DNA from: a virus
IMG/VR virus record: IMGVR_UViG_3300042314_001189
Location: 73,445-137,444 of that record
Direction: 5' to 3' (one strand)
DNA length: 64,000 nt
This document shows, piece after piece, positions 7,001-63,812 of this stretch. The notes beneath the pieces were generated by a model. It was not told the origin of the DNA and did no database searches. It saw only the letters and a list, made by a program, of their open reading frames with translations. Position numbers and translations under genes: made by a program. Each line of letters starts with the position of its first letter. The first letter of the stretch is position 1.

Positions 7001-8914
7001 ATGGACAAAAACATAATAAAACAACACTTAACTCAAAGGTTTGTAAATGAGGCAAAAGGAGAAACAGCAACACCTGGTATTACTGTTACTAATTCTGTCA
7101 ATAAGAAATCTGGTGATGTTAACAAAAAGGGTGTTAAAGACATGGAAAAAGATTTATCTGCTTATGATAAAGCTTTGAAAAAAGGTGCTGAAACAACCAA
7201 AGTCCCAAACAAATTTAACTACAACGGTGATTCTGAAATCGAGTACCACAACCAAATGGAAACACTTAATGGTACTGAAATGAATGAATACGACAGAGAA
7301 CCAACAAAAGAGTTTAAAGATAAAGCAAAAGAAGGTTTAACTGGTAGTGAAAGAATGGGTAATAAAGGTGGGAAAGATGTAGGTAACGCTGAGGAAACTT
7401 GGGGTGCTTCTTCTGATGATTTTGGTAAAGAAAAAGACAAAAATATTAAAGCGTCAACTAAGAAAAGACAAGACGCTGTTAAAGGTATCATAAGCTTCGG
7501 TGATGATATCGAAACAGTATCAAAAGATTATGCGCCAATGTCTAAACACACAGCGTATAACGAAAATAAAGATAATAATAAACCACAAATAAAAGAATCA
7601 ATGAAAAGACTTAAATTTAAAAAAGAATTCAAAGGTGTTGGAAACGCACTTAAAATGATACCAGAGTCGTACAAAGTAGATAACAAAGTATTTGAAATGA
7701 CTGATGGTAACGAATCATACAAAATCCGTTGGGAAGGAACTTTAACAGAAGGTAAAGCTGTTGTTCTTGTGGCTTCAGACAAAACTATGGTTAATGAAGA
7801 CATGCAAAAAATGAAACACCTAATGGGTTACAAATCACAAGATACTTTAGGTCTTGTAAGAGGTAAATCTAGAATCAACGAAAACGCTGTTTTCTCTGAT
7901 ATGTATAAAAAATCAAAAGCGTTATTAGAAGGTGAAGACATTGATGATGCTTCAGCATCTGAAGGTGATATGGATGATGCTGTTAAACATGCAGCAGAAG
8001 CTAAAAAACATGTTGAAGGTTCAGTATCAACTGAAAAAGGAACGCAAGCTCCAGCACCTAAAACTGGTAATCTAGAAGATGTTAAGAAAAAAGCACCAGA
8101 AGCAACTAAACATGTTGAAGGTTCAGTATCAACTGAAAAAGGAACACAAGCTCCAGCACCTAAAACTGGTAATTGGGATGTAAACGTTAAAGGTCAAGCA
8201 CCAGAAGCGAAAAAACATGTTCACATGTCAGAAGGAATTCAATTAGGTGAAAACTTTTTTGCACCAATGGAAGAAGGTCTATACGAATACGGTAGTGAGC
8301 ATGAAATGCCATTAGATGTTGCCGTTGGTCAACTTAAAGATAAAACAGCTGGGGTGAACGAGTATGGTGATGAGCATGAAATGCCATTAGATACTGCTGT
8401 AAAATCTATGTCTCTTAACAAAGAAGGTATGATGAACGAAGGTGCTGGTTTAAAAAACATGTTTAGCACAGCAAAACAAATTGCTAGTAAAATTTTACAA
8501 GGCGAATTAACCGATGAGGATAAACAAGATATTATGAATGCAACTAATAAGATTGGAGACCCAAAAGCGATGCTTTCTAAATTAAGTGGTATTTCACAAT
8601 TAACACCAGAAGAAGAAGCAGAATTAACTAATCAATCAACTGAATTAGCTGAAGGTTGGTGGGGTGACACTGGTAAAAGATGGGCTGCTAGATTTTCAGC
8701 TTTAATTGGTGCACCAGCATCGTTGATAGCATCAATAATGGGTATGTGGTCTCAAGGTGCTGGTTGGGCTGATAGTCCAATTTTAAGTAGAGTACACGAC
8801 ATGACTGACGCAGCATTTGGTATCTACGGTGGTCCAGTTTCAACTTTAGGGTTCTTTATCTCAATACTATACTTAGGTGCTGCATTAATAAATTTTAATG
8901 CTGGTAAAAAATAA
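7001..8914 (+). CDS. putative virion/head-associated protein with internal repeats and C-terminal hydrophobic segments
   Basis: 637 aa, K/E/G-rich, repeated KHVEGSVSTEKGTQAPAPKTGN. Confidence 0.6.
   Translation: MDKNIIKQHLTQRFVNEAKGETATPGITVTNSVNKKSGDVNKKGVKDMEKDLSAYDKALKKGAETTKVPNKFNYNGDSEIEYHNQMETLNGTEMNEYDREPTKEFKDKAKEGLTGSERMGNKGGKDVGNAEETWGASSDDFGKEKDKNIKASTKKRQDAVKGIISFGDDIETVSKDYAPMSKHTAYNENKDNNKPQIKESMKRLKFKKEFKGVGNALKMIPESYKVDNKVFEMTDGNESYKIRWEGTLTEGKAVVLVASDKTMVNEDMQKMKHLMGYKSQDTLGLVRGKSRINENAVFSDMYKKSKALLEGEDIDDASASEGDMDDAVKHAAEAKKHVEGSVSTEKGTQAPAPKTGNLEDVKKKAPEATKHVEGSVSTEKGTQAPAPKTGNWDVNVKGQAPEAKKHVHMSEGIQLGENFFAPMEEGLYEYGSEHEMPLDVAVGQLKDKTAGVNEYGDEHEMPLDTAVKSMSLNKEGMMNEGAGLKNMFSTAKQIASKILQGELTDEDKQDIMNATNKIGDPKAMLSKLSGISQLTPEEEAELTNQSTELAEGWWGDTGKRWAARFSALIGAPASLIASIMGMWSQGAGWADSPILSRVHDMTDAAFGIYGGPVSTLGFFISILYLGAALINFNAGKK
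8006..8173 (+). repeat. intragenic direct repeat (about 66 nt, period 102 nt)
   Basis: aaacatgttgaaggttcagtatcaactgaaaaaggaacRcaagctccagcacctaaaactggtaat at 8006 and 8108. Confidence 0.9.
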
Positions 8915-10082: not shown

Positions 10083-10691
10083 ATGTGTTATACTAGAGAA
10101 CAAATTGAGACGGCTGTTAAAGCCAAAGGATACAAATGGTTTGACGATGCTTCAAACAAAGGTTATGATGTAAACATTGTTGGTGTTAGAAATAACGCAC
10201 CAAACGTGGCTAAAAAAGTTACAAATGTATTTGATGACCACTTAACAATTTCATTTAAAGATGCGAGTGGAAATTGGCAATTTTATTGCTGGATGGCAAC
10301 ATGTGACCCAGGTAAAAAAGGTGTACAACAATTCCATAATAAAAAAGGTGTTGCTAGATTAGTACCAGCACAATACAGAGGTGTATGGAAAATAGATTTA
10401 CATCAAGGAAAATATGAAGCTCTTTGTCAAAGAAACGGTAATGTTACTGTTTGGAGAGATGCTAATAAAGATTTAGTGTTTGAAGAAACAACAAAAGATA
10501 CTGGTATGTTTGGTATAAACATTCACAAAGCTGGTCAAGATTCTACTTGGGTGGAAAATTGGAGCGAAGGTTGTCAAGTATTTAAAAGAGTGAAAGATTT
10601 TGATGAATTTATGAAAATTTGTAAATCAGCCTCAAAAATACACGGTAACAATTTTAGTTACACACTATTAGAAAGTACAGATATAGTTTAA
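10083..10691 (+). CDS. putative peptidoglycan peptidase (YkuD/L,D-transpeptidase-like)
   Basis: GINIH...WSEGCQV His/Cys motif; next to lysin. Confidence 0.5.
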   Translation: MCYTREQIETAVKAKGYKWFDDASNKGYDVNIVGVRNNAPNVAKKVTNVFDDHLTISFKDASGNWQFYCWMATCDPGKKGVQQFHNKKGVARLVPAQYRGVWKIDLHQGKYEALCQRNGNVTVWRDANKDLVFEETTKDTGMFGINIHKAGQDSTWVENWSEGCQVFKRVKDFDEFMKICKSASKIHGNNFSYTLLESTDIV

Positions 10692-32835: not shown

Positions 32836-32934
32836 ATGAGAACAATAAACATACATATGATTTCGATTAGTAATTGGAGACGCAATAGTCACCATACTGG
32901 TCAAGGTATGTTTAATGACATCATAGAATGGTAA
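32836..32934 (+). CDS. attenuator leader peptide 1 (MRTINIHMISISNWRRNSHHTGQGMFNDIIEW)
   Basis: Follows promoter TTGACA 32761 / TACCTTTG 32784; codons 4-20 are all I,N,H,M,S,W,R, matching downstream tRNAs. Confidence 0.85.
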   Translation: MRTINIHMISISNWRRNSHHTGQGMFNDIIEW

Positions 32935-33362: not shown

Positions 33363-33445
33363 GGAAGGAGCCCGAATGGACGAGGACACCGCCTTGAAAG
33401 CGGCTGGGTGTAAAAGCTTTGGGGGTTCGATTCCCTCTTCTTCCG
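33363..33445 (+). tRNA. tRNA-Ser (TGA)
   Basis: Long variable arm, loop CTTGAAA, G73. Confidence 0.9.
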
Positions 33446-33516
33446 CTAAAATTAAATTATATGAAAAAAAAATTTGACATGCTTTAAGTTCTGCTAAACA
33501 ACAGACGATAAAGCAA

Positions 33517-33791: not shown

Positions 33792-33910
33792 TGTAGGGTG
33801 GTGAAATTGGCAGACACGCCATCTGGTCTCGATGGTGTCGATTATTATCAACAGAATTATACTTTTTGTTGATAATAATCAACATGTGGGTTCAAATCCT
33901 ACCCCTACAG
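33792..33910 (+). tRNA. atypical tRNA-like RNA with giant variable arm and non-canonical anticodon loop
   Basis: TGTAGGG/CCCTACA acceptor, Leu/Ser-type D loop, CCATC-TGGTCTC-GATGG, about 50-nt variable hairpin, T arm. Confidence 0.65.
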
Positions 33911-33913
33911 CAA

Positions 33914-56813: not shown

Positions 56814-57068
56814 ATGAAAAACGTAAATTTAACAGTACTTTATTTAGCTTTGGTATCAGAATTTGGTGTGACTAGCTTTGAATTATCTAGCATTGTCCCA
56901 ACAACAACAAATGAGCCGATTGATGCTATGATTGATTTTAACTCTAAGTTAGATGAATTTGATGTTGACAGAATACAATCAATTGTTACTGAAAACATAA
57001 CTGGTGAAGTTAAACAAGCAACCGTTAAAACAAAAGGAAACGTTATACACGTTTATATTGAGTTTTAA
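56814..57068 (+). CDS. hypothetical protein
   Basis: 84 aa ORF. Confidence 0.5.
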   Translation: MKNVNLTVLYLALVSEFGVTSFELSSIVPTTTNEPIDAMIDFNSKLDEFDVDRIQSIVTENITGEVKQATVKTKGNVIHVYIEF

Positions 57069-57640
57069 GCTTTAAAATCACTCATATTGATAACAATGTT
57101 GTCCATGAAAGATTTGTCAACATAAGACCTTTCTTTATTGACTGGCCAACCACTTTTTAAATTGTTGTCAATGTGTGCTTGAAGCTGAAGATGCGGAGAC
57201 CTATTTGCTGGTATTTTTGGGTCAGCCAAAACAATACTAGGCATACGATTGTCATATATCCCAATGTAGTAAGAAAGACCACTTTTAACGTCTTCTTTAC
57301 GTTGAGCCGTGACAACAGCTGTTACTGGATTACCTTTAACTGGTTGTACTTTAACCATACCTAGAGGTACCAAAACACAAATACCTTCTTTGCCTTTTTT
57401 ACCAATAGGGTAATCAGTAGCAATAACTGCATTTATTTTATCTTTTAATTTTGCTTGAAGTTGTGAGATTATCCAAGCGTCTTGTGTTTCTTTAGATGCG
57501 TTAGGTAAATAAACATTTGCTGGTAATTGAATACCAATGATATCGTTAACTACTTCATTAACACGGTCATTAAAGTGAGCCATTGGGTCGGCTTCGGTAA
57601 TATATTCTAAAAGATATTTTTTCAATAAGTCTTTAATCAT
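57065..57640 (-). CDS. hypothetical protein (head-targeting-like N-terminus)
   Basis: MIKDLLKKYLLEYITE; TATTTATA upstream. Confidence 0.6.
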   Translation of the reverse strand: MIKDLLKKYLLEYITEADPMAHFNDRVNEVVNDIIGIQLPANVYLPNASKETQDAWIISQLQAKLKDKINAVIATDYPIGKKGKEGICVLVPLGMVKVQPVKGNPVTAVVTAQRKEDVKSGLSYYIGIYDNRMPSIVLADPKIPANRSPHLQLQAHIDNNLKSGWPVNKERSYVDKSFMDNIVINMSDFKA

Positions 57641-57761
57641 GATAATATTTTACTATAAATATTGTAAAAAAATAATAAAACACTTGACAAACATAAAAAA
57701 AAGTAGTATCTTTGTGTAACTTTTATAAATAATGGTATATTTAATAAAAAACAAAAAAATT

Positions 57762-57836
57762 ATGAAAACTATTAACACAGTACTTACTTTATTATTATGT
57801 TTGCTAGTGGCAGACTGGGTGGGCTATGCGTGTTAA
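57762..57836 (+). CDS. attenuator leader peptide 2 (MKTINTVLTLLLCLLVADWVGYAC)
   Basis: Follows TTGACA 57684 / TATCTTTG 57707; codons 7-16 are V,L,T,L,L,L,C,L,L,V, matching downstream Cys/Val/Leu tRNAs. Confidence 0.85.
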   Translation: MKTINTVLTLLLCLLVADWVGYAC

Positions 57837-57860
57837 AAGTTGAATACTATATAACAAGAG

Positions 57861-57891
57861 AAGCCCATCTAAGTAATTAGATGGGTTTTTT
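57861..57891 (+). terminator. attenuator terminator 2
   Basis: AAGCCCATCTAA gtaa TTAGATGGGTTT T-run; 5' arm pairs with TGGGTGGGCT (57816-57825). Confidence 0.85.
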
Positions 57892-57898
57892 GCTTTAT

Positions 57899-57969
57899 GG
57901 CACCGTGGCCGAGTGGCTAGGCAGAGGTCTGCAAAACCTCGAACACTGGTTCGAATCCAGTCGGTGCCT
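57899..57969 (+). tRNA. tRNA-Cys (GCA)
   Basis: Cloverleaf, loop CTGCAAA, U73. Confidence 0.9.
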
Positions 57970-57984
57970 CTAAAAATAATAATT

Positions 57985-58137
57985 ATGGAAAAAGAAAAAA
58001 CAGTATTAACGGGTAAATTTAAAGGTTCTAGGGAATTTTTTAGACCAAAAGTGAATCAATTAGAAAATAATTTTAATTGGGGTAAAATGATAAAAAAGTT
58101 GTTAAAGACTAAAAAAAAAGTAAAAAAAGTGTTATGA
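57985..58137 (+). CDS. small basic protein
   Basis: ATG 57985, about 50 aa. Confidence 0.45.
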   Translation: MEKEKTVLTGKFKGSREFFRPKVNQLENNFNWGKMIKKLLKTKKKVKKVL

Positions 58138-58472
58138 TTAGTAGTAAAGAGTTCTTAATGAACAGAGATGAAACGGGTAGACTTATTGTCAAAATGCTTG
58201 ACGGTACAAACAAACAATATTTTGTTGAGTTTATTGAACCTAAAGGCGGTATTAGAACAGATTGGGGTTCTTATAACCCTAGTACTGGGAACATCGAGAA
58301 TAAAAAAGGTGCTGGTAAGTACAATGGTGGTATACCAGCAAGTGAATCATTGATTACTGTCAAAAATGGTTTTAGTGAAGAAAACGCTAACACTATTTAC
58401 GAAGGGGCTTCGTTTGAATCTACTATAACAGAAATGCACGCTAAATGGAAAAAAGAAAATGGTTATGCTTAA
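58134..58472 (+). CDS. hypothetical protein
   Basis: 112 aa ORF. Confidence 0.6.
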   Translation: MISSKEFLMNRDETGRLIVKMLDGTNKQYFVEFIEPKGGIRTDWGSYNPSTGNIENKKGAGKYNGGIPASESLITVKNGFSEENANTIYEGASFESTITEMHAKWKKENGYA

Positions 58473-58767
58473 TGAAACTGAAATAAAAAAAGACTTATTT
58501 AAGTCAAAAGCAATGGCTAAGTTTAATCACTATATTGCTGGTAACTTATATTACAACGTTGAAGTATTTGGTGATATGTATGTATTTCCGATTGCAACTG
58601 TAGAAGAAGTAATTGAAACTGATTCGTTTGAAAGAGAAGAAATACAAACACTAAAATTATCTTCAGATTTAGGTACAACTATATTTAAAAGTGAAATTAG
58701 AGGTTCTGAATTAGCTAGATGGATTAGTAAAGCCATAAAGAATGAAACATTTATAAAGCTAGGGTAA
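58459..58767 (+). CDS. hypothetical protein
   Basis: 102 aa ORF. Confidence 0.6.
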   Translation: MVMLNETEIKKDLFKSKAMAKFNHYIAGNLYYNVEVFGDMYVFPIATVEEVIETDSFEREEIQTLKLSSDLGTTIFKSEIRGSELARWISKAIKNETFIKLG

Positions 58768-58779
58768 AACCTAGTATAT

Positions 58780-58851
58780 TGGACTGTAACTCAGAGGCAG
58801 AGTGCTGCTATGACATGGCAGAAGTCGGGATTTCAAAATTCCCCAGTCCAA
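58780..58851 (+). tRNA. tRNA-Val (GAC)
   Basis: Cloverleaf, loop ATGACAT. Confidence 0.8.
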
Positions 58852-58858
58852 CAAATAT

Positions 58859-58931
58859 TGAGATATAGCTCAGTGGAAGTAGCAACTCCCTTACATGGAG
58901 AAGGTCGTAGGTTCGAATCCTACTATCTCAA
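58859..58931 (+). tRNA. tRNA-Val (TAC)
   Basis: Cloverleaf, loop CTTACAT. Confidence 0.85.
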
Positions 58932-58990
58932 CTTTAATGTTTCATAAAAAGTGAAACAAACAATTAAATTTCACATAAAGTGAAATAAAT

Positions 58991-59023
58991 GCTTCGGTGG
59001 TGGAATAGGTAGACACGAGGGAC
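58991..59023 (+). pseudogene. 5' half of a tRNA-Leu truncated at the anticodon loop
   Basis: GCTTCGG-TGGTGGAATAGGTAGACAC-GAGGGAC then unrelated sequence leading to HNH gene. Confidence 0.7.
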
Positions 59024-59055
59024 GACTTTTCTATCATATCTACATATTTATTAGT

Positions 59056-59484
59056 ATGGAAGATATGGAATTTATCAAAGTGTGTCAAGAATCTGACACC
59101 ATGGCAAAAGCGGCTGCGACTTTAGGGTTGCATTTTAATACTTTTAAACGTAAAGCGGTTAAATTAGGTTGTTATAAACCAAATCAAGCTGGTAAAGGTA
59201 TTACTAAAAAAGATAATGGTAATAAAATATCATTAGATGAAATATTAGGTGGTAAACACCCTTATTACCAAACTAATAAATTGAGGAAAAGATTGATTAG
59301 TGAGGGTTATAAAACTGGTGAGTGTGAAGAATGTCATATTACTGAATGGAATGGTAAACCAATAACTATTGAATTAGACCATATAGACGGTAATAGAAAT
59401 AACCATTCATTAGAAAACTTGAAAATGTTATGTCCAAACTGCCATAGTCAGACACCAACATTTAGAGGTAAAAAAAGAGAATAA
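59056..59484 (+). CDS. HNH homing endonuclease
   Basis: CEEC, ELDHIDGNRNNHSLENLKMLCPNCHSQT; N-terminal HTH-like segment. Confidence 0.9.
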   Translation: MEDMEFIKVCQESDTMAKAAATLGLHFNTFKRKAVKLGCYKPNQAGKGITKKDNGNKISLDEILGGKHPYYQTNKLRKRLISEGYKTGECEECHITEWNGKPITIELDHIDGNRNNHSLENLKMLCPNCHSQTPTFRGKKRE

Positions 59485-59568
59485 GCTCCGATGGTGGAAC
59501 TGGTAGACACGCAGCACTTAAAATGCTGTTCCCAGACGGGAGTGAGGGTTCGAGTCCCTCTCGGAGTA
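59485..59568 (+). tRNA. tRNA-Leu (TAA)
   Basis: Variable arm, loop CTTAAAA. Confidence 0.9.
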
Positions 59569-59576
59569 CAATATAT

Positions 59577-59658
59577 GCGGATATGGGGGAATTGGTAGAC
59601 CCGCTGGTCTTAGAAACCAGTGCCGAAAGGCGTGCGAGTTCGAGTCTCGCTATCCGTA
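59577..59658 (+). tRNA. tRNA-Leu (TAG)
   Basis: Variable arm, loop CTTAGAA. Confidence 0.9.
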
Positions 59659-59661
59659 CAA

Positions 59662-59982
59662 ATGATAACAAAATTAGTAAACATTAAGAATGAACCTTAC
59701 GATGTCTATATCGGTAGAGGTTCTAAATGGGGTTGTCCTTATACAATAATCAAAGATAGACGAACACTTGCAACTGAAATAGTTGGTTCTAAAGAAGAAG
59801 CTTTATCCAAGTATCGAGATTATGTGTTGGCTAGTCCAGAACTTATGAGTTCACTAAGTGAATTGGAGGGGAAGACGTTGGGTTGTTTTTGCAAACCAGA
59901 AAAATGTCATGGTGATATCTTGTTAGAATTATTAGAAAGAGAAAAATTAAAAAAATTTTTTAATAATAATTTGGATAAGTAA
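59662..59982 (+). CDS. DUF4326-family protein
   Basis: YDVYIGRGSKWG, ELEGKTLGCFCKPEKCHGDIL. Confidence 0.8.
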   Translation: MITKLVNIKNEPYDVYIGRGSKWGCPYTIIKDRRTLATEIVGSKEEALSKYRDYVLASPELMSSLSELEGKTLGCFCKPEKCHGDILLELLEREKLKKFFNNNLDK

Positions 59983-60023
59983 AATATTATTATTACCTTT
60001 GTGTATAATCTTATATTTATATT

Positions 60024-60335
60024 ATGGTAGCAATTTGGTTTATATGTTTAGTTTTGGTAACTAGAATCATTGAGTTTAGAATCTTTATGAAGAAAGTAAG
60101 CAAAATGTGTAACAAGTACGATTGGAATTACATCAACGAAAATCCAATGTGTTTACTTGATAAGATGGAAAACGAAAATGGTTATTATTTAACTAGTGAA
60201 TGGTCAGCTTACAACTTTTTATTTTTGAAAGGTCCAAGCCCCAAACAAATGTTTTTATCATTTAAACCATTAACTATTGAATACCAATATAACAAAGAAG
60301 TAGTTGATAAAGTAAGAAAATATGAGATTAAGTGA
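60024..60335 (+). CDS. hypothetical protein
   Basis: 103 aa, N-terminal hydrophobic. Confidence 0.5.
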   Translation: MVAIWFICLVLVTRIIEFRIFMKKVSKMCNKYDWNYINENPMCLLDKMENENGYYLTSEWSAYNFLFLKGPSPKQMFLSFKPLTIEYQYNKEVVDKVRKYEIK

Positions 60336-60972
60336 GATTTATATCAAAGAATTTTTTTTAAAAGAATTTTGGGGTAATGTAAGTGAAGATTTATTAAGTG
60401 AGGTTGACACTTCTGGTATCAATGCCTTATTAAGTAAAGCTGATGAATTAGTTTTTAAAAAATTTAGAATCTTACCCAACAATAAGTCTTATTTCATTGC
60501 TGGTTCAGCTAGACTATATTTGTATCCTAAATTAAGAGATGCGTTTGGTTTGAGTGGTACGATAGGTGATTTAGATTTAGTTATCCCAAATGAACAACTT
60601 TGGGTGAACGCTGGGTTACAAGAAGAATTACAAAAAGGTGGTATATATAGACCAACAAAAGATGGTTCAGTTGAAGCGTTTACTATCTGGGACCCATCAA
60701 AAGCTGGTGGTTCATATGCTGATGTAAAAGTTAGGTCAACCAATGAAATATTAGCCAGTGCTGATTTAATTGATGGTTATTATTATATGAGCATGGCAGA
60801 TGTTGCTGATTATAAAACAAAGTTGAGTAGGGATAAAGAACAAGAAGTTGTAAACCTTATCAACCAATATAAAGAGAGTAGCGGTGAGGATAAACATGGT
60901 TTTTTAAGACAAATAATTCATGCGATAGGTCTTAACAATGCTAGAGAATTCTTGGGTGGGATAAGAAAATAA
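60322..60972 (+). CDS. nucleotidyltransferase-like protein
   Basis: YFIAGSARL...GDLDLVI (GS...DxD). Confidence 0.55.
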   Translation: MRLSEIYIKEFFLKEFWGNVSEDLLSEVDTSGINALLSKADELVFKKFRILPNNKSYFIAGSARLYLYPKLRDAFGLSGTIGDLDLVIPNEQLWVNAGLQEELQKGGIYRPTKDGSVEAFTIWDPSKAGGSYADVKVRSTNEILASADLIDGYYYMSMADVADYKTKLSRDKEQEVVNLINQYKESSGEDKHGFLRQIIHAIGLNNAREFLGGIRK

Positions 60973-61062
60973 TAAAAAAATTTTAAAAAAAACTTGACAT
61001 TTTACAAAATAGTTAGTACCTTTGTATAACTTTTAAAAAAAACGAAATATTTAATTAGAACA

Positions 61063-61152
61063 ATGAGAACAATTAACAACATATTTGAATTTGATTTCTT
61101 CGCAGCCGAGGCCGATTTTAGCCTAGGAAGGTCAACTCATGTCAAAAGTTAA
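61063..61152 (+). CDS. attenuator leader peptide 3 (MRTINNIFEFDFFAAEADFSLGRSTHVKS)
   Basis: Follows TTGACA 60994 / TACCTTTG 61017; codons 8-19 are all F,E,D,A, matching downstream tRNAs. Confidence 0.85.
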   Translation: MRTINNIFEFDFFAAEADFSLGRSTHVKS

Positions 61153-61178
61153 CGAAACTCGTAAACAATATTGATTAG

Positions 61179-61207
61179 AAGCTTGGCCGAAACGCCAAGC
61201 TTTTTTT
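61179..61207 (+). terminator. attenuator terminator 3
   Basis: AAGCTTGGC cgaaac GCCAAGCTT T-run; 5' arm can pair with GGTCAACT (61130-61137). Confidence 0.85.
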
Positions 61208-61283
61208 GTTTAGATAAATTAAAAAAAAAGTTGTAAATAAATTTGGATATGTCAAAAATTATTTATACCTTTGTAAAAGAAAA

Positions 61284-61356
61284 GGGAAGATAGCTCAGTT
61301 GGTAGAGCACGGCACTGAAGATGCTGGTGTCGGGGGTTCGAATCCCTCTCTTCCCA
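61284..61356 (+). tRNA. tRNA-Phe (GAA)
   Basis: Cloverleaf, loop CTGAAGA. Confidence 0.9.
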
Positions 61357-61418
61357 CAAATATGGAACAACATCGCTCCCGATATGCCATGGCTTGTATA
61401 CGAGTAACGGGAGACAAT

Positions 61419-61490
61419 GGCCCATTCGTCTAACGGTTAGGACGTTAGGTTTTCAACCTAGAAACACGAGTTCGATTCTCGTATGGGCTA
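61419..61490 (+). tRNA. tRNA-Glu (TTC)
   Basis: Cloverleaf, loop TTTTCAA. Confidence 0.85.
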
Positions 61491-61491
61491 C

Positions 61492-61645
61492 AAAACATCT
61501 GGTGAGGTAAGACTGGTAGGCTTCTAATCCGACCCCTCGCAAGAGGAAGGAGAGACTAACGAAATAACCAAACTAGTAGTTAGTCGAAGGGATTTACTTG
61601 AATCATCGAGTTTGGTGTAGAGTAAATTGTGTAACTGGGTGTTTT
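61492..61645 (+). ncRNA. structured intergenic RNA of unknown family
   Basis: AAAACATCTGG/CTGGGTGTTTT terminal stem; internal hairpins CCTC-GCAA-GAGG, GACTAAC/GTTAGTC, ATTTACT/AGTAAAT. Confidence 0.45.
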
Positions 61646-61649
61646 ATTT

Positions 61650-61723
61650 GGTCTGTTAGTAGAGTTGGTTACAATATCGCACTGTCACTGCGAAGGTCAC
61701 GGGTTCGAATCCCGTACAGACCG
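61650..61723 (+). tRNA. tRNA-Asp (GTC)
   Basis: Cloverleaf, loop CTGTCAC, G73. Confidence 0.9.
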
Positions 61724-61726
61724 CAA

Positions 61727-61963
61727 AAATAACATACAGCAAATTTTATTTGTGGTGGTAAGTTAGTGAAAACTACACTAAAATAATTTATGTTGATTCG
61801 AAAGATATTATTGATATAGTGAGATTGTGTGGTCACACATTAACTGGTCAGAAATCAGCTCACCTAGTATTAGAATATATTAGTAGATAAATAAATTAAA
61901 ATGTCGTCAAAATATTAAGAAGGTTTAACCTTGACCAAGTTAAAAGACCTTAAATGTTATTTG
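61727..61963 (+). ncRNA. CAGCAA bulged-stem ncRNA, copy F
   Basis: AAATAACAT-ACAGCAA ... ATGTTATTT-G. Confidence 0.5.
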
Positions 61964-62014
61964 TTAAAATGAAGTTGGTAATTCACCGTAAAACCGTGGT
62001 TTCTTCATTTATCT

Positions 62015-62087
62015 GGGGAAGTAGCTCAACTGGCTGAGCGTTACCTTTGCAAGGTAAAGGATGTGGGTTCGAATCCCATCTTCTCCA
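62015..62087 (+). tRNA. tRNA-Ala (TGC)
   Basis: G3-U70, loop TTTGCAA. Confidence 0.9.
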
Positions 62088-62222
62088 CAAACAGTACCTC
62101 GATGCTTCCCATAAGAACAGCACAGAGGTCTTGTTCTCACGTAAACGAATAGCCCTAGGCATAAGTTATGGTGAGAGACCCATCCTCTCTTTGGTAGACG
62201 TATCGAATGATGATGGTAATCT

Positions 62223-62296
62223 GGGGGATTAGCTCAGCTGGCTAGAGCACCGCACTTGCACTGCGGGGGTCAACGGTTCGAATCCGTTATCCTCCA
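62223..62296 (+). tRNA. tRNA-Ala (TGC)
   Basis: G3-U70, loop CTTGCAC. Confidence 0.9.
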
Positions 62297-62301
62297 CAAT
62301 T

Positions 62302-62373
62302 GGCCCATTCGACAAGTGGTTAAGTCGTTGCCCTTTCACGGCAGAGTCACGGGTTCGAATCCCGTATGGGTCA
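62302..62373 (+). tRNA. tRNA-Glu (TTC)
   Basis: Cloverleaf, loop CTTTCAC. Confidence 0.9.
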
Positions 62374-62414
62374 CAATAATAAACGGCAAGTCCGTTAAAT
62401 AAAAACGAACAAAA

Positions 62415-62914
62415 ATGATAGGTCAAGGGGGCAACAGCTTGGACGCAATTTAACCAAGCAACAACGTATAGAGTTACGCAAAGAAGAGATAGGTAGCAAA
62501 TTAGATAGAAAGCTACAAAAATACTCACAAGGGTTCAACGAAATCTTTAATTTTTTCTTACAATCATATAGAAGTGGTTTATTAACATTCTGTGGTTCGA
62601 TTGTTGAAGTTGAATTCGATGTCAATGGTTTTGAAGGTAAAAATACTTTTAGGAAATATGACAACGGACAATATCAACAAGGCAAATCTATTATAACAAG
62701 GCATCCAAACATTGTAAAAAGCGTTATAATAGGAAAAAAATCATGGGGTTTATGGGTTAATCAATGGTCAGATGGTATTGTTGAAGGTACTTTCACAAAG
62801 AGAGAAATACTACAAGAGTTTGAAGACAAGAACATAAAGATACCAGAACCACTACTAATAGATTTTGAAAACAGAATCTACAATAAGATAAAGAAGAAAT
62901 ATGGAAAACTTTAG
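62415..62914 (+). CDS. frameshifted or non-AUG-start hypothetical gene (about 165 aa)
   Basis: Stop-free frame 62399-62914 (NLTKQQRIELRKEE...KYGKL*) has no ATG; ATG 62415 is in the +1 frame and stops at 62451-62453. Confidence 0.5.
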
Positions 62915-63092
62915 TTTTGAACTTAACAAAGATTATTATCTGGAAAAAGGTAAAATAATTTATACCGAATACTATCTAAGAAAAAGAGGTACGTGTTGCG
63001 GTAGTGGTTGTAGGCATTGTCCTTTCGACCCATCTTTTACAAAGGGTAATAAAATTTTGAAAGAAAAAATAGATAAAAACTTGAATGATTAA
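62901..63092 (+). CDS. DUF5522-like Cys-rich small protein
   Basis: YLRKRGTCCGSGCRHCPF. Confidence 0.75.
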   Translation: MENFSFELNKDYYLEKGKIIYTEYYLRKRGTCCGSGCRHCPFDPSFTKGNKILKEKIDKNLND

Positions 63093-63347
63093 AAATTTAT
63101 AAGTACATTTGTATTATGAAAAAAAGAATGTTACAGAAGATTATGCAAATGATGGCTAACTATGTTATTTACATGTTAGAGAATTCTAGAAGTGATGAAA
63201 TGTTTAATTACTATTTTGAGATTGGTGCTAAATTAGATGCTTATGCGGTAGAATTCCATGACATATATTTAGATTAAAAAAAATATTAAAAAAAACTTGC
63301 ATATTTGAAAATTAATTAATACCTTTGCATTGTAAAAAAAAAAACAA

Positions 63348-63812
63348 ATGAAAAATTCAAAACAAATCAAATCGTTCATCCTTAAAAAAGGAAACAAATT
63401 AACAAACTCTGAAATGGCGACCAAATTAGGTGTACCAACAATGACATTCGCTGGTGTGTTAGCGCACATGAAAAGAAAAGGTGAGGTACCTAGTGATTTT
63501 TTGAAAACAGATTTACTTAAAACACAGAAAACAACTGTAAGTAAAACAACTGTTAGCAACCCAAAACTTACTGTGAACTTTTCAAAAGTTGCTGTAATTA
63601 AAAAATCAGAGTTGACATCTCAGTTACGCAATCGTTTGGCTGACCAAAACAAAACATTAATCAGCGGTAAAACTTTTTACAATGGAAATGCTTTTGATAA
63701 AGTTATTGAAAACCATGACTCTTATTCTAGAGGTTTAACTGAAAAATCTTTATCTAGAATTGAAGGTTTAGGTCGTGTTTTTGCTGAATGTGACTACATT
63801 GAAATAATCTAA
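63348..63812 (+). CDS. hypothetical basic protein (possible HTH)
   Basis: 154 aa; TNSEMATKLGVP. Confidence 0.55.
   Translation: MKNSKQIKSFILKKGNKLTNSEMATKLGVPTMTFAGVLAHMKRKGEVPSDFLKTDLLKTQKTTVSKTTVSNPKLTVNFSKVAVIKKSELTSQLRNRLADQNKTLISGKTFYNGNAFDKVIENHDSYSRGLTEKSLSRIEGLGRVFAECDYIEII

What the first reader, a model, noticed from the sequence alone, without database searches (positions are those of the whole stretch)
61063..62373. Leader 3 (Phe/Glu/Asp/Ala) gates the Phe-Glu-Asp-Ala-Ala-Glu tRNA cluster
Codons 8-19 read F E F D F F A A E A D F (12 of 12), and the downstream tRNAs are Phe(GAA), Glu(TTC) x2, Asp(GTC), Ala(TGC) x2. Terminator at 61179-61207; candidate antiterminator GGTCAACT (61130-61137) is weaker than in leaders 1 and 2. 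Caveat: a second TAnnTTTG promoter at about 61267 lies between terminator and tRNA-Phe, so attenuation may add to a basal level.
Basis: partly seen in the sequence, partly recalled or inferred. Interest (0 to 1): 0.82.

Follow-up and report, generated by a model that had tools for sequence, protein, structure and literature searches.

The report
Codon-matched leader switch before phage tRNAs
A lake-water phage puts a tiny translated test gene, written in the four amino acids of the tRNA genes behind it, plus a transcription stop in front of those genes, so it probably makes extra tRNA when ribosomes read those codons slowly, although here a second promoter feeds the same genes as well.

Summary
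A 29-codon ORF (61063-61152) has codons 8-19 made only of Phe, Glu, Asp and Ala. A strong intrinsic terminator follows (61177-61207), then tRNA-Phe, Glu, Asp, Ala, Ala, Glu. Such a 12-residue run is unique in the six-frame translation (expected 0.005).

Eleven further distinct relatives keep a 29-codon ORF and the terminator position. Every residue seen at codons 8-18 stays within the four amino acids (15 of 15 states, against 5 of 47 elsewhere in the ORF). Other phages, including cultured Cellulophaga phage phi4:1, carry differently composed leaders that match their own tRNA blocks. The cognate assignment is the single best of 720 permutations.

Two points weaken "gates" for this copy. Its antiterminator is no better than shuffled controls and is the weakest of 12. 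A canonical promoter (61242-61273) also lies between terminator and tRNA-Phe; 9 of 16 loci have it and 7 lack it.

Best reading: a ribosome-mediated attenuator that adds induced transcripts to a basal supply. I found no paper on this. The scan has noted the same device before, on this genome's other two leaders and on many other phage genomes.

The parts
60994..61024 (+). Promoter P1 of the leader: -33 hexamer at 60994-60999 and Bacteroidota-type -7 motif at 61017-61024. The expected start of transcription is near 61030.
   Evidence: Read. The -7 motif is listed, where the motif class occurs 39 times against 18.3 expected. All three leaders of this genome share the same upstream block. The start site is inferred, not mapped.
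61063..61152 (+). Leader ORF of 29 codons with a Met-Arg-Thr start. The stop codon is at 61150-61152.
   Evidence: The 29-codon length is kept in all 16 loci examined and in the 12 sequences aligned (11 distinct ORFs).
61084..61119 (+). Regulatory block, codons 8-19, all Phe, Glu, Asp or Ala. Codons 8-18 are the part kept in all relatives.
61106..61127 (+). Small conserved hairpin inside the ORF, with pairs 61106-61127, 61107-61126, 61110-61123, 61111-61122 and 61113-61121. It may be a pause hairpin or the core of the helix that hides the antiterminator strand.
   Evidence: RNAalifold found 5 pairs, one of them with compensatory change in 4 of 12 sequences. In the free-RNA fold the helix extends so that 61091-61101 pairs with 61127-61135. 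The role is inferred.
61130..61137 (+). It pairs with 61180-61181 and 61183-61188 of the terminator's 5' arm.
   Evidence: The homologous pairing forms in 11 of 12 relatives. By energy it is weak in this copy.
61141..61175 (+). Inner part of the antiterminator stem-loop: helix 61141-61145 with 61171-61175 around a hairpin at 61148-61166 that holds the stop codon.
   Evidence: The same nested layout appears in the folds of the relatives with different sequences, for example L029 and L097.
61177..61207 (+). Intrinsic terminator: 11-pair stem, 6-base loop, run of seven T.
   Evidence: At least 7 different stem sequences among relatives sit at the same distance from the stop codon (T-run at +47 to +51).
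61242..61273 (+). Internal promoter P2. Its -7 motif ends 10 bases before tRNA-Phe.
   Evidence: one of 21 matches, 3.3 expected. Present in 9 of 16 loci and absent in 7.
61284..61357 (+). tRNA-Phe (GAA)
61419..61491 (+). tRNA-Glu (TTC)
61650..61724 (+). tRNA-Asp (GTC)
62015..62088 (+). tRNA-Ala (TGC), first copy
62223..62297 (+). tRNA-Ala (TGC), second copy
62302..62374 (+). tRNA-Glu (TTC), second copy, the last gene of the block

Best explanation
Leader 3 is a ribosome-mediated (leader-peptide) transcription attenuator that sits in front of a phage tRNA block.

Proposed mechanism:
- Promoter P1 starts a transcript near 61030, and a ribosome translates the 29-codon ORF.
- If Phe, Glu, Asp and Ala codons are read quickly, the ribosome runs on to the stop codon. 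The stop codon lies inside the antiterminator stem-loop, so that structure cannot form. The terminator at 61177-61207 then folds and the transcript ends.
- If the ribosome lingers on codons 8 to about 17, it melts the helix that hides 61130-61137. That strand, with the nested helices behind it, pairs with the terminator's 5' arm before the 3' arm is made. RNA polymerase then runs on into tRNA-Phe, Glu, Asp, Ala, Ala, Glu.
- The extra tRNAs should speed reading of the same codons, which closes a negative feedback loop on decoding capacity.

In this genome the loop tops up a basal supply from promoter P2 (61242-61273), and its switch is the weakest of the family.

Shown: the ORF, its make-up, the terminator, P2, and conservation and co-variation in relatives. 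Inferred: translation of the ORF, stalling, the switch, the feedback and the P1 start site.
For: 1. Anatomy: promoter, short ORF, 12 of 12 codons in the four amino acids of the six tRNAs behind it, and a terminator. The run is unique in six frames, with 0.0047 expected.

2. Relatives: 16 loci from 16 contigs were found in three independent ways. These were synteny with the upstream gene, the C-terminal DNA and the start pattern, plus two scans keyed on the middle of the ORF. All keep a 29-codon ORF. In all 14 loci folded (the 16 less L139 and L142, which have the same leader and terminator as L134) the T-run starts 47-51 bases after the stop.

3. Composition: in 12 aligned sequences (11 distinct ORFs), codons 8-18 show 15 residue states and all 15 lie within Phe/Glu/Asp/Ala. 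The other codons show 47 states, 5 within the set. The changes include Glu/Asp, Asp/Ala, Phe/Glu and Ala/Glu, so the composition is kept rather than the sequence.

4. Other leader types match other tRNA sets. With a blind block of codons 6-20 and six types, the cognate assignment is the single best of 720 permutations.

5. Cultured Cellulophaga phage phi4:1 has three such leaders. In the first, 11 of 11 consecutive codons lie in the six amino acids of the 7 tRNAs that follow.

6. Terminator stems differ in sequence (at least 7 stems), yet all keep a segment complementary to the invariant strand at ORF bases 66-78. In the nascent-RNA fold the 5' arm pairs there in 11 of 12 sequences, and at bases 78-88 in L132.

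7. That pairing beats shuffled arms in at most 15 of 500 shuffles in 8 of 12 relatives.

8. In all 12 the energy gap between terminator and antiterminator states is smaller with a ribosome parked at codon 13 than with one at the stop codon. In this window the gap is 9.8 against 15.5 kcal/mol.

9. In 7 of 16 loci there is no promoter between terminator and tRNA-Phe. In 5 of these the T-run ends 7-15 bases before the tRNA, so there the leader unit is the only visible entry to the block.
Against: 1. In this window the antiterminator is not better than chance. The duplex is -8.3 kcal/mol, and 110 of 500 shuffled arms do as well; for the nascent fold, 90 of 500 do as well.

2. The count of paired arm bases is not significant in any of the 12 sequences (17 to 43 per cent of shuffles reach it in most).

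3. Under a stalled ribosome, this window's gap to the terminator state (9.8 kcal/mol) is the largest of the 12.

4. P2 is a canonical promoter 10 bases before tRNA-Phe, so the block can be made without passing the attenuator.

5. Two of the three Ala codons of the leader are of the type ending in C. That codon makes up 9 per cent of Ala codons in the phage's long ORFs. By standard wobble rules (recalled) it is not the natural codon of the tRNA-Ala(TGC) genes behind it. The same bases are invariant and lie in the small hairpin, so RNA structure rather than sensing may fix them.

6. Some relatives hold extra tRNAs in the block that the leader does not sample: His in L005, Asn in L013, an anticodon-TCA tRNA in L134, Ser in L140.

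7. There is no expression evidence for the leader. RNA-library contigs listed cover spacers of the block but none covers 61063-61210, and contigs cannot show starts or ends.
Confidence: 0.6

Rival explanations
1. In this genome the leader unit no longer switches. The terminator ends P1 transcripts constitutively and shields the block from upstream transcription. All tRNA of the block comes from P2. The ORF is a conserved remnant of a switch that still works in relatives.
For: The antiterminator in the window is no better than shuffles, and its energy gap is the largest of 12. P2 is canonical and lies 10 bases before tRNA-Phe. One base pair flipped in the terminator stem, relative to L008, removes part of the complementarity.
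Against: ORF bases 40-90 are identical between the window and L008, while the neighbouring protein is only 74 per cent identical, which argues for continuing selection. The nested antiterminator stem-loop still forms in the nascent fold. Enterobacterial antiterminators are also weaker than their terminators (recalled). P2 and an intact leader coexist in 9 of 16 loci from several lineages, which points to a stable two-input design rather than decay.
Confidence: 0.22
2. The leader unit senses something other than tRNA supply, such as amino-acid starvation or the general rate of translation. Or it acts on P2, with readthrough occluding or boosting it, rather than simply adding transcripts.
For: A leader of this kind reports the speed of decoding, whatever slows it (established for amino-acid operons, recalled). 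The terminator is only about 35 bases upstream of P2's -33 element, so polymerases reading through would cross P2.
Against: Across phages the amino acids of each leader follow the tRNA genes behind it, not any biosynthetic gene. Making tRNA would not relieve amino-acid starvation. Seven of 16 loci have no P2 to act on.
Confidence: 0.08
3. Chance: an unrelated small ORF and a terminator that merely ends the upstream gene.
For: Short ORFs abound in AT-rich DNA. Twenty-one other short ORFs with the same start pattern in stored loci had no tRNA behind them.
Against: A promoter lies between the upstream gene and the ORF. The run is unique in six frames. The ORF is conserved with within-set substitutions. 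The permutation tests favour the cognate assignment.
Confidence: 0.02

Closest known systems
Multivalent leader-peptide attenuators of enterobacterial amino-acid operons (thr leader for Thr and Ile; ilvGMEDA leader for Ile, Val, Leu); recalled knowledge
   Same: A short translated ORF follows the promoter and has a block of mixed regulatory codons. An intrinsic terminator lies before the regulated genes. An alternative pairing takes the terminator's 5' arm when the ribosome lingers. The stop codon is placed so that a finishing ribosome prevents that pairing.
   Different: The regulated genes are tRNAs, not biosynthetic enzymes, so the loop would act on decoding capacity itself. The element is in a phage with Bacteroidota-type promoters. 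There is no sequence match to any Rfam leader family at E up to 1. In this copy a second promoter bypasses the attenuator.
pheM leader of the pheST operon and pheL of pheA in Escherichia coli (Phe-rich leaders); recalled knowledge
   Same: Phe codons in a leader report the supply of charged tRNA-Phe. For pheST they control a gene of the translation apparatus.
   Different: Those leaders use a single amino acid, have a protein-coding target, are bacterial and belong to an unrelated sequence family.
T-box riboswitches
   Same: They couple tRNA status to readthrough of a terminator by way of a competing antiterminator.
   Different: T-boxes bind uncharged tRNA directly and need no ribosome or ORF. 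No T-box match was found in 60900-62500.
The same device at the other two tRNA blocks of this genome (32836 and 57762) and in other phages, including Cellulophaga phage phi4:1
   Same: Shared Met-Lys/Arg-Thr start, promoter type, terminator, and a leader make-up that follows the tRNAs behind it.
   Different: The sets of amino acids differ. The leader at 57762 has no room for a promoter between terminator and first tRNA, whereas leader 3 has P2. I found this described in no paper. Earlier notes of this scan describe it.

Membership tests
Ribosome-mediated (leader-peptide) transcription attenuator | Short ORF with a start codon between promoter and terminator | tested here: met
   ORF at 61063-61152. 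Promoter motif at 61017-61024. Terminator at 61177-61207. Translation itself is not shown.
Ribosome-mediated (leader-peptide) transcription attenuator | Block of regulatory codons cognate to what the regulated genes supply | tested here: met
   12 of 12 codons are in the four amino acids of the six tRNAs. The set is kept through substitutions in relatives. Caveat: two Ala codons ending in C are not the natural codons of anticodon TGC.
Ribosome-mediated (leader-peptide) transcription attenuator | Intrinsic terminator before the first regulated gene | tested here: met
   (about -15.5 kcal/mol, seven T). The position is kept in all 14 loci folded, with at least 7 stem sequences.
Ribosome-mediated (leader-peptide) transcription attenuator | Antiterminator that competes for the terminator's 5' arm, is free when the ribosome stalls in the block and is blocked when it reaches the stop codon | tested here: inconclusive
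   The geometry fits, and the pairing forms in the nascent fold. In the window it is no better than shuffles and is the weakest of 12. It is significant in 8 of 12 relatives.
Ribosome-mediated (leader-peptide) transcription attenuator | The attenuator is the only entry to the regulated genes (no promoter behind it) | tested here: not met
   P2 lies at 61242-61273. The feature is met in 7 of 16 related loci.
Ribosome-mediated (leader-peptide) transcription attenuator | Readthrough rises when the cognate codons are read slowly | not testable with these tools
   The RNA runs are kept as contigs only and show no starts, ends or levels.
Known Rfam leader families (Phe, His, Thr, Leu, Trp leaders) | Match to the family's covariance model | tested here: not met
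   No match at E up to 1 in 60900-62500. Only the six tRNAs and three weak chance rows were listed.
T-box riboswitch | Match to the T-box model (specifier and T-box sequence) | tested here: not met
   No match.

The most novel reading that the evidence does not exclude
Phages of Bacteroidota split their tRNA genes into blocks. Each block is wired to its own translated sensor, spelled in the block's amino acids. The phage would then measure, codon class by codon class, how well the infected cell still decodes, and would replace exactly the tRNAs that run short. Shortage could come from decay of the host pool after host shut-off or from host anticodon nucleases. On this reading, leader 3 with its second promoter is a two-input version: a constant basal supply plus an emergency supply. 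The family would be a barcoded counter-measure to tRNA-targeting defence.
Probability: 0.3. Interest if true: 0.9.

Novelty: new variant of a known kind. Interest (0 to 1): 0.75.

Why it matters
Why phages carry tRNA genes, and how their expression is controlled, is still debated. A sensor that reads the decoding speed of the very codons its tRNAs serve would be the first known feedback control of tRNA genes through a leader peptide. It would show that phages monitor the host's translation capacity class by class.

The idea is directly testable, because cultured Cellulophaga phage phi4:1 carries three such leaders. This copy adds a specific point: in part of the family the switch works beside a constitutive promoter, which suggests a basal-plus-inducible design. 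It also shows that single copies can have marginal switches.

Tried and rejected
RNAalifold on the MAFFT alignment of 12 leaders did not recover the terminator, because the stems are shifted by one or more columns between lineages. I therefore used per-sequence folds. I built no covariance model.

The first shuffle control counted how many 5'-arm bases pair with the end of the ORF. It gave no significance in any of the 12 sequences. I replaced it with energy-based controls and report both.

RNA evidence: three metatranscriptome runs and one doubtful run were laid, and all are kept as contigs. Contigs with 0 or 1 differences cover spacers of the block:
- 61372-61652 and 61636-61822 in X17
- 61550-61725 and 61807-61974 in X16
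- 61506-61648 in X20

No listed contig covers the leader. Contigs cannot show starts, ends or levels, and DNA may be present in such libraries. This neither supports nor refutes attenuation.

The DNA search of the phage collection with 61040-61300 found only 7 AT-rich partial matches around P2 and no cultured phage with a leader-3 homologue. The first search, with 60300-62500, matched only tRNA genes.

The start-pattern scan was too loose. After filtering, 31 rows had tRNAs within 3.5 kb downstream and 21 had none.

Only one of those fetched held a leader (L242), so the true number of relatives in metagenomes is unknown.

Folds of the spacers gave weak scores (z -2.07 for 61492-61649 and -1.38 for 61725-62014).

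I could not see supplements of papers. Those of PMC5335546 may hold phage transcript maps that bear on the cultured relatives.

I made no protein, structure or complex searches, because the leader is too short for them to say anything.

Rows left out:
- L007 and L015 have the same leader peptides as L006 and L013, and were left out.
- L006, L133, L139 and L142 are near-identical to L005 or L134, and were left out of the 12 used.
- L014, L016, L017 and L018 are second fetches of contigs already held.
Full report
WHAT IS THERE. The window is the last 64 kb of a 137,444-base virus record. CheckV estimates the record as 39 per cent complete, and its G+C content is 32.4 per cent. All 24 tRNA genes of the record lie in the window.

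At 61063-61152 there is a 29-codon ORF. Upstream lie a -33 hexamer (60994-60999) and a Bacteroidota-type -7 motif (61017-61024). Codons 8-19 (61084-61119) are Phe, Glu, Asp or Ala without exception. An 11-pair hairpin with seven T follows at 61177-61207. Next comes a second complete promoter at 61242-61273. Then come tRNA-Phe(GAA), Glu(TTC), Asp(GTC), Ala(TGC), Ala(TGC) and Glu(TTC) between 61284 and 62374. Every coordinate in the finding is right to within two bases.

CHANCE. In the six-frame translation of the window (127,996 residues), the 12-residue run is the only run of these four amino acids longer than 8. From the amino-acid use of the window's long ORFs (the four sum to 0.24), 0.0047 such runs are expected anywhere in the window.

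RELATIVES. I found relatives in ways that do not depend on each other:
- by the protein encoded upstream (7 loci; 4 of them hold both the leader and the tRNA block, one is cut before the leader, and 2 have no tRNAs)
- by the DNA of the ORF's last third (6 stretches)

I examined 16 loci from 16 contigs, the window included. I then reduced these to 12 sequences with 11 distinct ORFs. The rows left out are listed under Tried and rejected.

All 16 ORFs have 29 codons. In the 14 loci folded the T-run starts 47 to 51 bases after the stop codon, and the terminator stems have at least 7 different sequences.

THE LEADER KEEPS ITS MAKE-UP, NOT ITS SEQUENCE. In the 12 sequences, codons 8-18 show 15 residue states, and all 15 are Phe, Glu, Asp or Ala. 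Position 9 is Glu or Asp, position 11 Asp or Ala, position 12 Phe or Glu, and position 17 Ala or Glu. The other 17 codons after the start show 47 states, of which 5 fall in the set. Codon 19 is not kept (Phe, Glu, Lys, Tyr or Arg), so the conserved block is codons 8-18.

Codons 14-16 and 18 are invariant even at silent sites. The scans required some of those bases, so part of this is ascertainment. It also holds in the eight loci found in other ways.

OTHER LEADERS, OTHER tRNAs. The script found short ORFs with the same Met-Lys/Arg-Thr start in front of other tRNA blocks. Examples:
- one rich in Ile, Glu, Ser, His, Gln, Cys and Trp, before Glu, Cys, His, Ile, Trp, Met, Gln and Ser tRNAs (L118)
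- one rich in Thr, Asn, Pro, Asp, Gly and Ala, before Pro, Asn, Asp, Gly, Thr and Ala tRNAs (L120, L082, L072)
- one before Thr, Asn, Pro, Ser and Ser tRNAs (L034)
- the window's own two other leaders, at 32836 and 57762

I took one representative of each of six types and a blind block of codons 6-20. The cognate assignment of leaders to tRNA sets scores 4.53 against a mean of 1.77, and is the single best of 720 permutations. These six were picked by start pattern and by having tRNAs downstream, not by make-up. Three of them come from this one genome.

A CULTURED CASE. The tRNA array of Cellulophaga phage phi4:1 (NC_021788.1, host Cellulophaga baltica) holds three such units:
- ORF at L262 7707-7775: codons 4-14 are 11 of 11 in the six amino acids of the seven tRNAs behind it.
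- Annotated gp075 (8631-8750): its last 31 codons are 27 of 31 in the amino acids of the ten tRNAs behind it. Its start codon is uncertain.
- ORF at 10413-10511: codons 4-17 are 8 of 14 in the set of the named tRNAs behind it.

Each is followed by a hairpin with a T-run directly before the first tRNA. With these three added, the cognate assignment is the single best of 362,880 permutations for three choices of block. I picked these three ORFs by eye after seeing their make-up, so the larger test is not blind.

THE SWITCH. In the fold of the free RNA, the strand 61127-61135 is held by the regulatory codons 61091-61101, and the terminator forms.

I then folded the RNA that exists before the terminator's 3' arm is made, with a ribosome parked at codon 13. 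In that fold, 61130-61137 pairs with 61180-61181 and 61183-61188 of the 5' arm. This pairing closes a stem-loop whose inner helices (61141-61145 with 61171-61175, and a hairpin at 61148-61166) hold the stop codon. The same layout forms in 11 of 12 sequences. L132 uses ORF bases 78-88 instead.

The layout matches the classical scheme. A ribosome held in the block frees the antiterminator strand. A ribosome that reaches the stop codon sits on the inner helices.

In all 12 sequences the energy gap between the terminator and antiterminator states is smaller with the ribosome at codon 13 than at the stop codon.

Co-variation supports the pairing. L045 has changed both the end of the ORF and the terminator arm and keeps an 8-pair match. 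L097 has a 9-pair match and L029 an 8-pair match.

CONTROLS THAT CUT THE OTHER WAY. Counting paired arm bases does not beat shuffled arms in any sequence.

By energy, the duplex beats shuffles in 8 of 12 sequences, with at most 15 of 500 shuffles as good. It does not in the window (-8.3 kcal/mol, 110 of 500), L005, L242 or L140.

The window's gap under a stalled ribosome, 9.8 kcal/mol, is the largest of the 12. One flipped base pair in the stem, relative to L008, costs the window two pairs of the antiterminator. Taken alone, this copy's switch is not demonstrable.

THE SECOND PROMOTER. P2 matches the commonest promoter pattern of this phage, which occurs 21 times in the window against 3.3 expected. 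Its -7 motif ends 10 bases before tRNA-Phe.

A -7 motif 10-14 bases before tRNA-Phe is present in 8 loci, and one 58 bases before it in L097, which makes 9 of 16. It is absent in 7 of 16. In L134, L138, L139, L142 and L140 the T-run ends 7-15 bases before the tRNA. In L013 and L132 an ORF is inserted and no motif is seen.

In L008 a gene with weak phosphatase matches sits between the leader terminator and tRNA-Phe, with a promoter copy on each side.

The family therefore has two designs. In one, the leader unit is the only visible entry to the block. In the other, which this window has, a constitutive promoter is added behind it.

EXPRESSION DATA. DNA runs from lake water hold the stretch, and three metatranscriptome runs hold parts of it. 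Laid on 57000-63500, they give contigs with 0 or 1 differences over spacers of the block, but no listed contig over the leader. Contigs show neither starts nor ends. This is no test of the model.

HOW IT MOST LIKELY WORKS. P1 transcripts carry the ORF, and quick reading of the block leads to termination at 61207. Slow reading of Phe, Glu, Asp or Ala codons frees the antiterminator, and polymerase runs on through P2 into the six tRNA genes. Their products speed the same codons again.

P2 supplies a basal level. The likely signal is the supply of charged tRNA in the infected cell. More tRNA would help if the host's tRNA pool is decaying or under attack, but not in amino-acid starvation (inference).

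I put this at 0.6 for this copy. For the family as a whole I would put it higher. The main rival, at 0.22, is that this copy has become a plain terminator in front of a P2-driven block.

COMPARISON WITH WHAT IS KNOWN. The device works like the multivalent leader-peptide attenuators of enterobacterial amino-acid operons, and like the Phe-rich leader of the Phe-tRNA synthetase operon (recalled knowledge). It is not a sequence relative of any Rfam leader family or T-box.

It fails one feature of a strict gate, since a promoter lies behind it, and one feature is inconclusive here (the antiterminator).

My searches of the paper library found no account of tRNA genes under leader-peptide control. 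I used these term sets:
- leader peptide, attenuation, tRNA genes and bacteriophage
- phage-encoded tRNA and leader peptide
- ribosome-mediated attenuation and tRNA
- tRNA, phage, attenuator, leader and tRNA cluster
- Cellulophaga phage, tRNA and leader
- viral tRNA and transcription attenuation

For these I saw listings and the starts of abstracts only. Of PMC5335546, an RNA-seq study of another Cellulophaga phage, I saw three passages on tRNA, and none concerns phage leaders.

Earlier notes of this scan describe the same device on this genome's other leaders and on many other phage genomes, some naming cultured Cellulophaga phages. I reached phi4:1 on my own, before reading those notes.

LIMITS. 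Everything is computational. The following are all inferred:
- translation of the ORF
- the P1 start site
- stalling
- the switch
- the feedback

The relatives are few and partly ascertained through the leader's own sequence. 

Noticed in passing
window 61492-61649; L008 7835-7981: The 158-base spacer between tRNA-Glu and tRNA-Asp is largely the same in the window and in L008, whose flanking protein is only 74 per cent identical. RNA-library contigs with 0-1 differences cover it. There is no Rfam match, and the fold z-score is only -2.07. It may be an unrecognised small RNA or a degraded tRNA.
   Followed up: partly
window 58990-59484: An HNH endonuclease gene (59056-59484, Pfam HNH at the cut-off) lies directly before tRNA-Leu(TAA). 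It is preceded by what looks by eye like the first half of a tRNA-Leu, as if a homing endonuclease had inserted and duplicated part of the tRNA.
   Followed up: no
L134 and L142 (242 bases after the leader start); L140; L005; L013: Relatives hold extra tRNAs inside the Phe/Glu/Asp/Ala block that the leader does not sample. These are an anticodon-TCA tRNA (a reader of the TGA stop codon) right behind tRNA-Phe in L134 and L142, Ser(CGA) in L140, a short His(GTG) in L005-L007, and Asn(GTT) in L013 and L015.
   Followed up: no
L008 6975-7616: A 213-codon gene with a lipoprotein-like start and weak dual-specificity phosphatase matches is inserted between the leader terminator and tRNA-Phe, with a promoter copy on each side. 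L013 and L132 have other ORFs inserted at the same place; I did not search those.
   Followed up: partly
window 24751-25428 and 26565-26636: A release-factor-like gene is interrupted by two in-frame TGA codons, and nearby is a tRNA with anticodon CTA (a reader of the TAG stop codon). I saw both while reading the other tRNA regions. Earlier notes of the scan cover them.
   Followed up: no
window 33365-33447 and 33797-33912: Two tRNA-like stretches in the block behind the leader at 32836 that ARAGORN did not call. The second seems to carry a long insertion.
   Followed up: no
L262 7696-7709 (Cellulophaga phage phi4:1): The first leader of phi4:1 starts only a few bases after the -7 promoter motif, so its mRNA may be leaderless or nearly so. 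The window's leaders have about 30 bases of untranslated leader.
   Followed up: no
window 24318-24520: Two tRNA-Met genes, and the suppressor tRNA at 26565, are the only 3 of the 24 tRNAs not placed behind a Met-Lys/Arg-Thr leader.
   Followed up: partly
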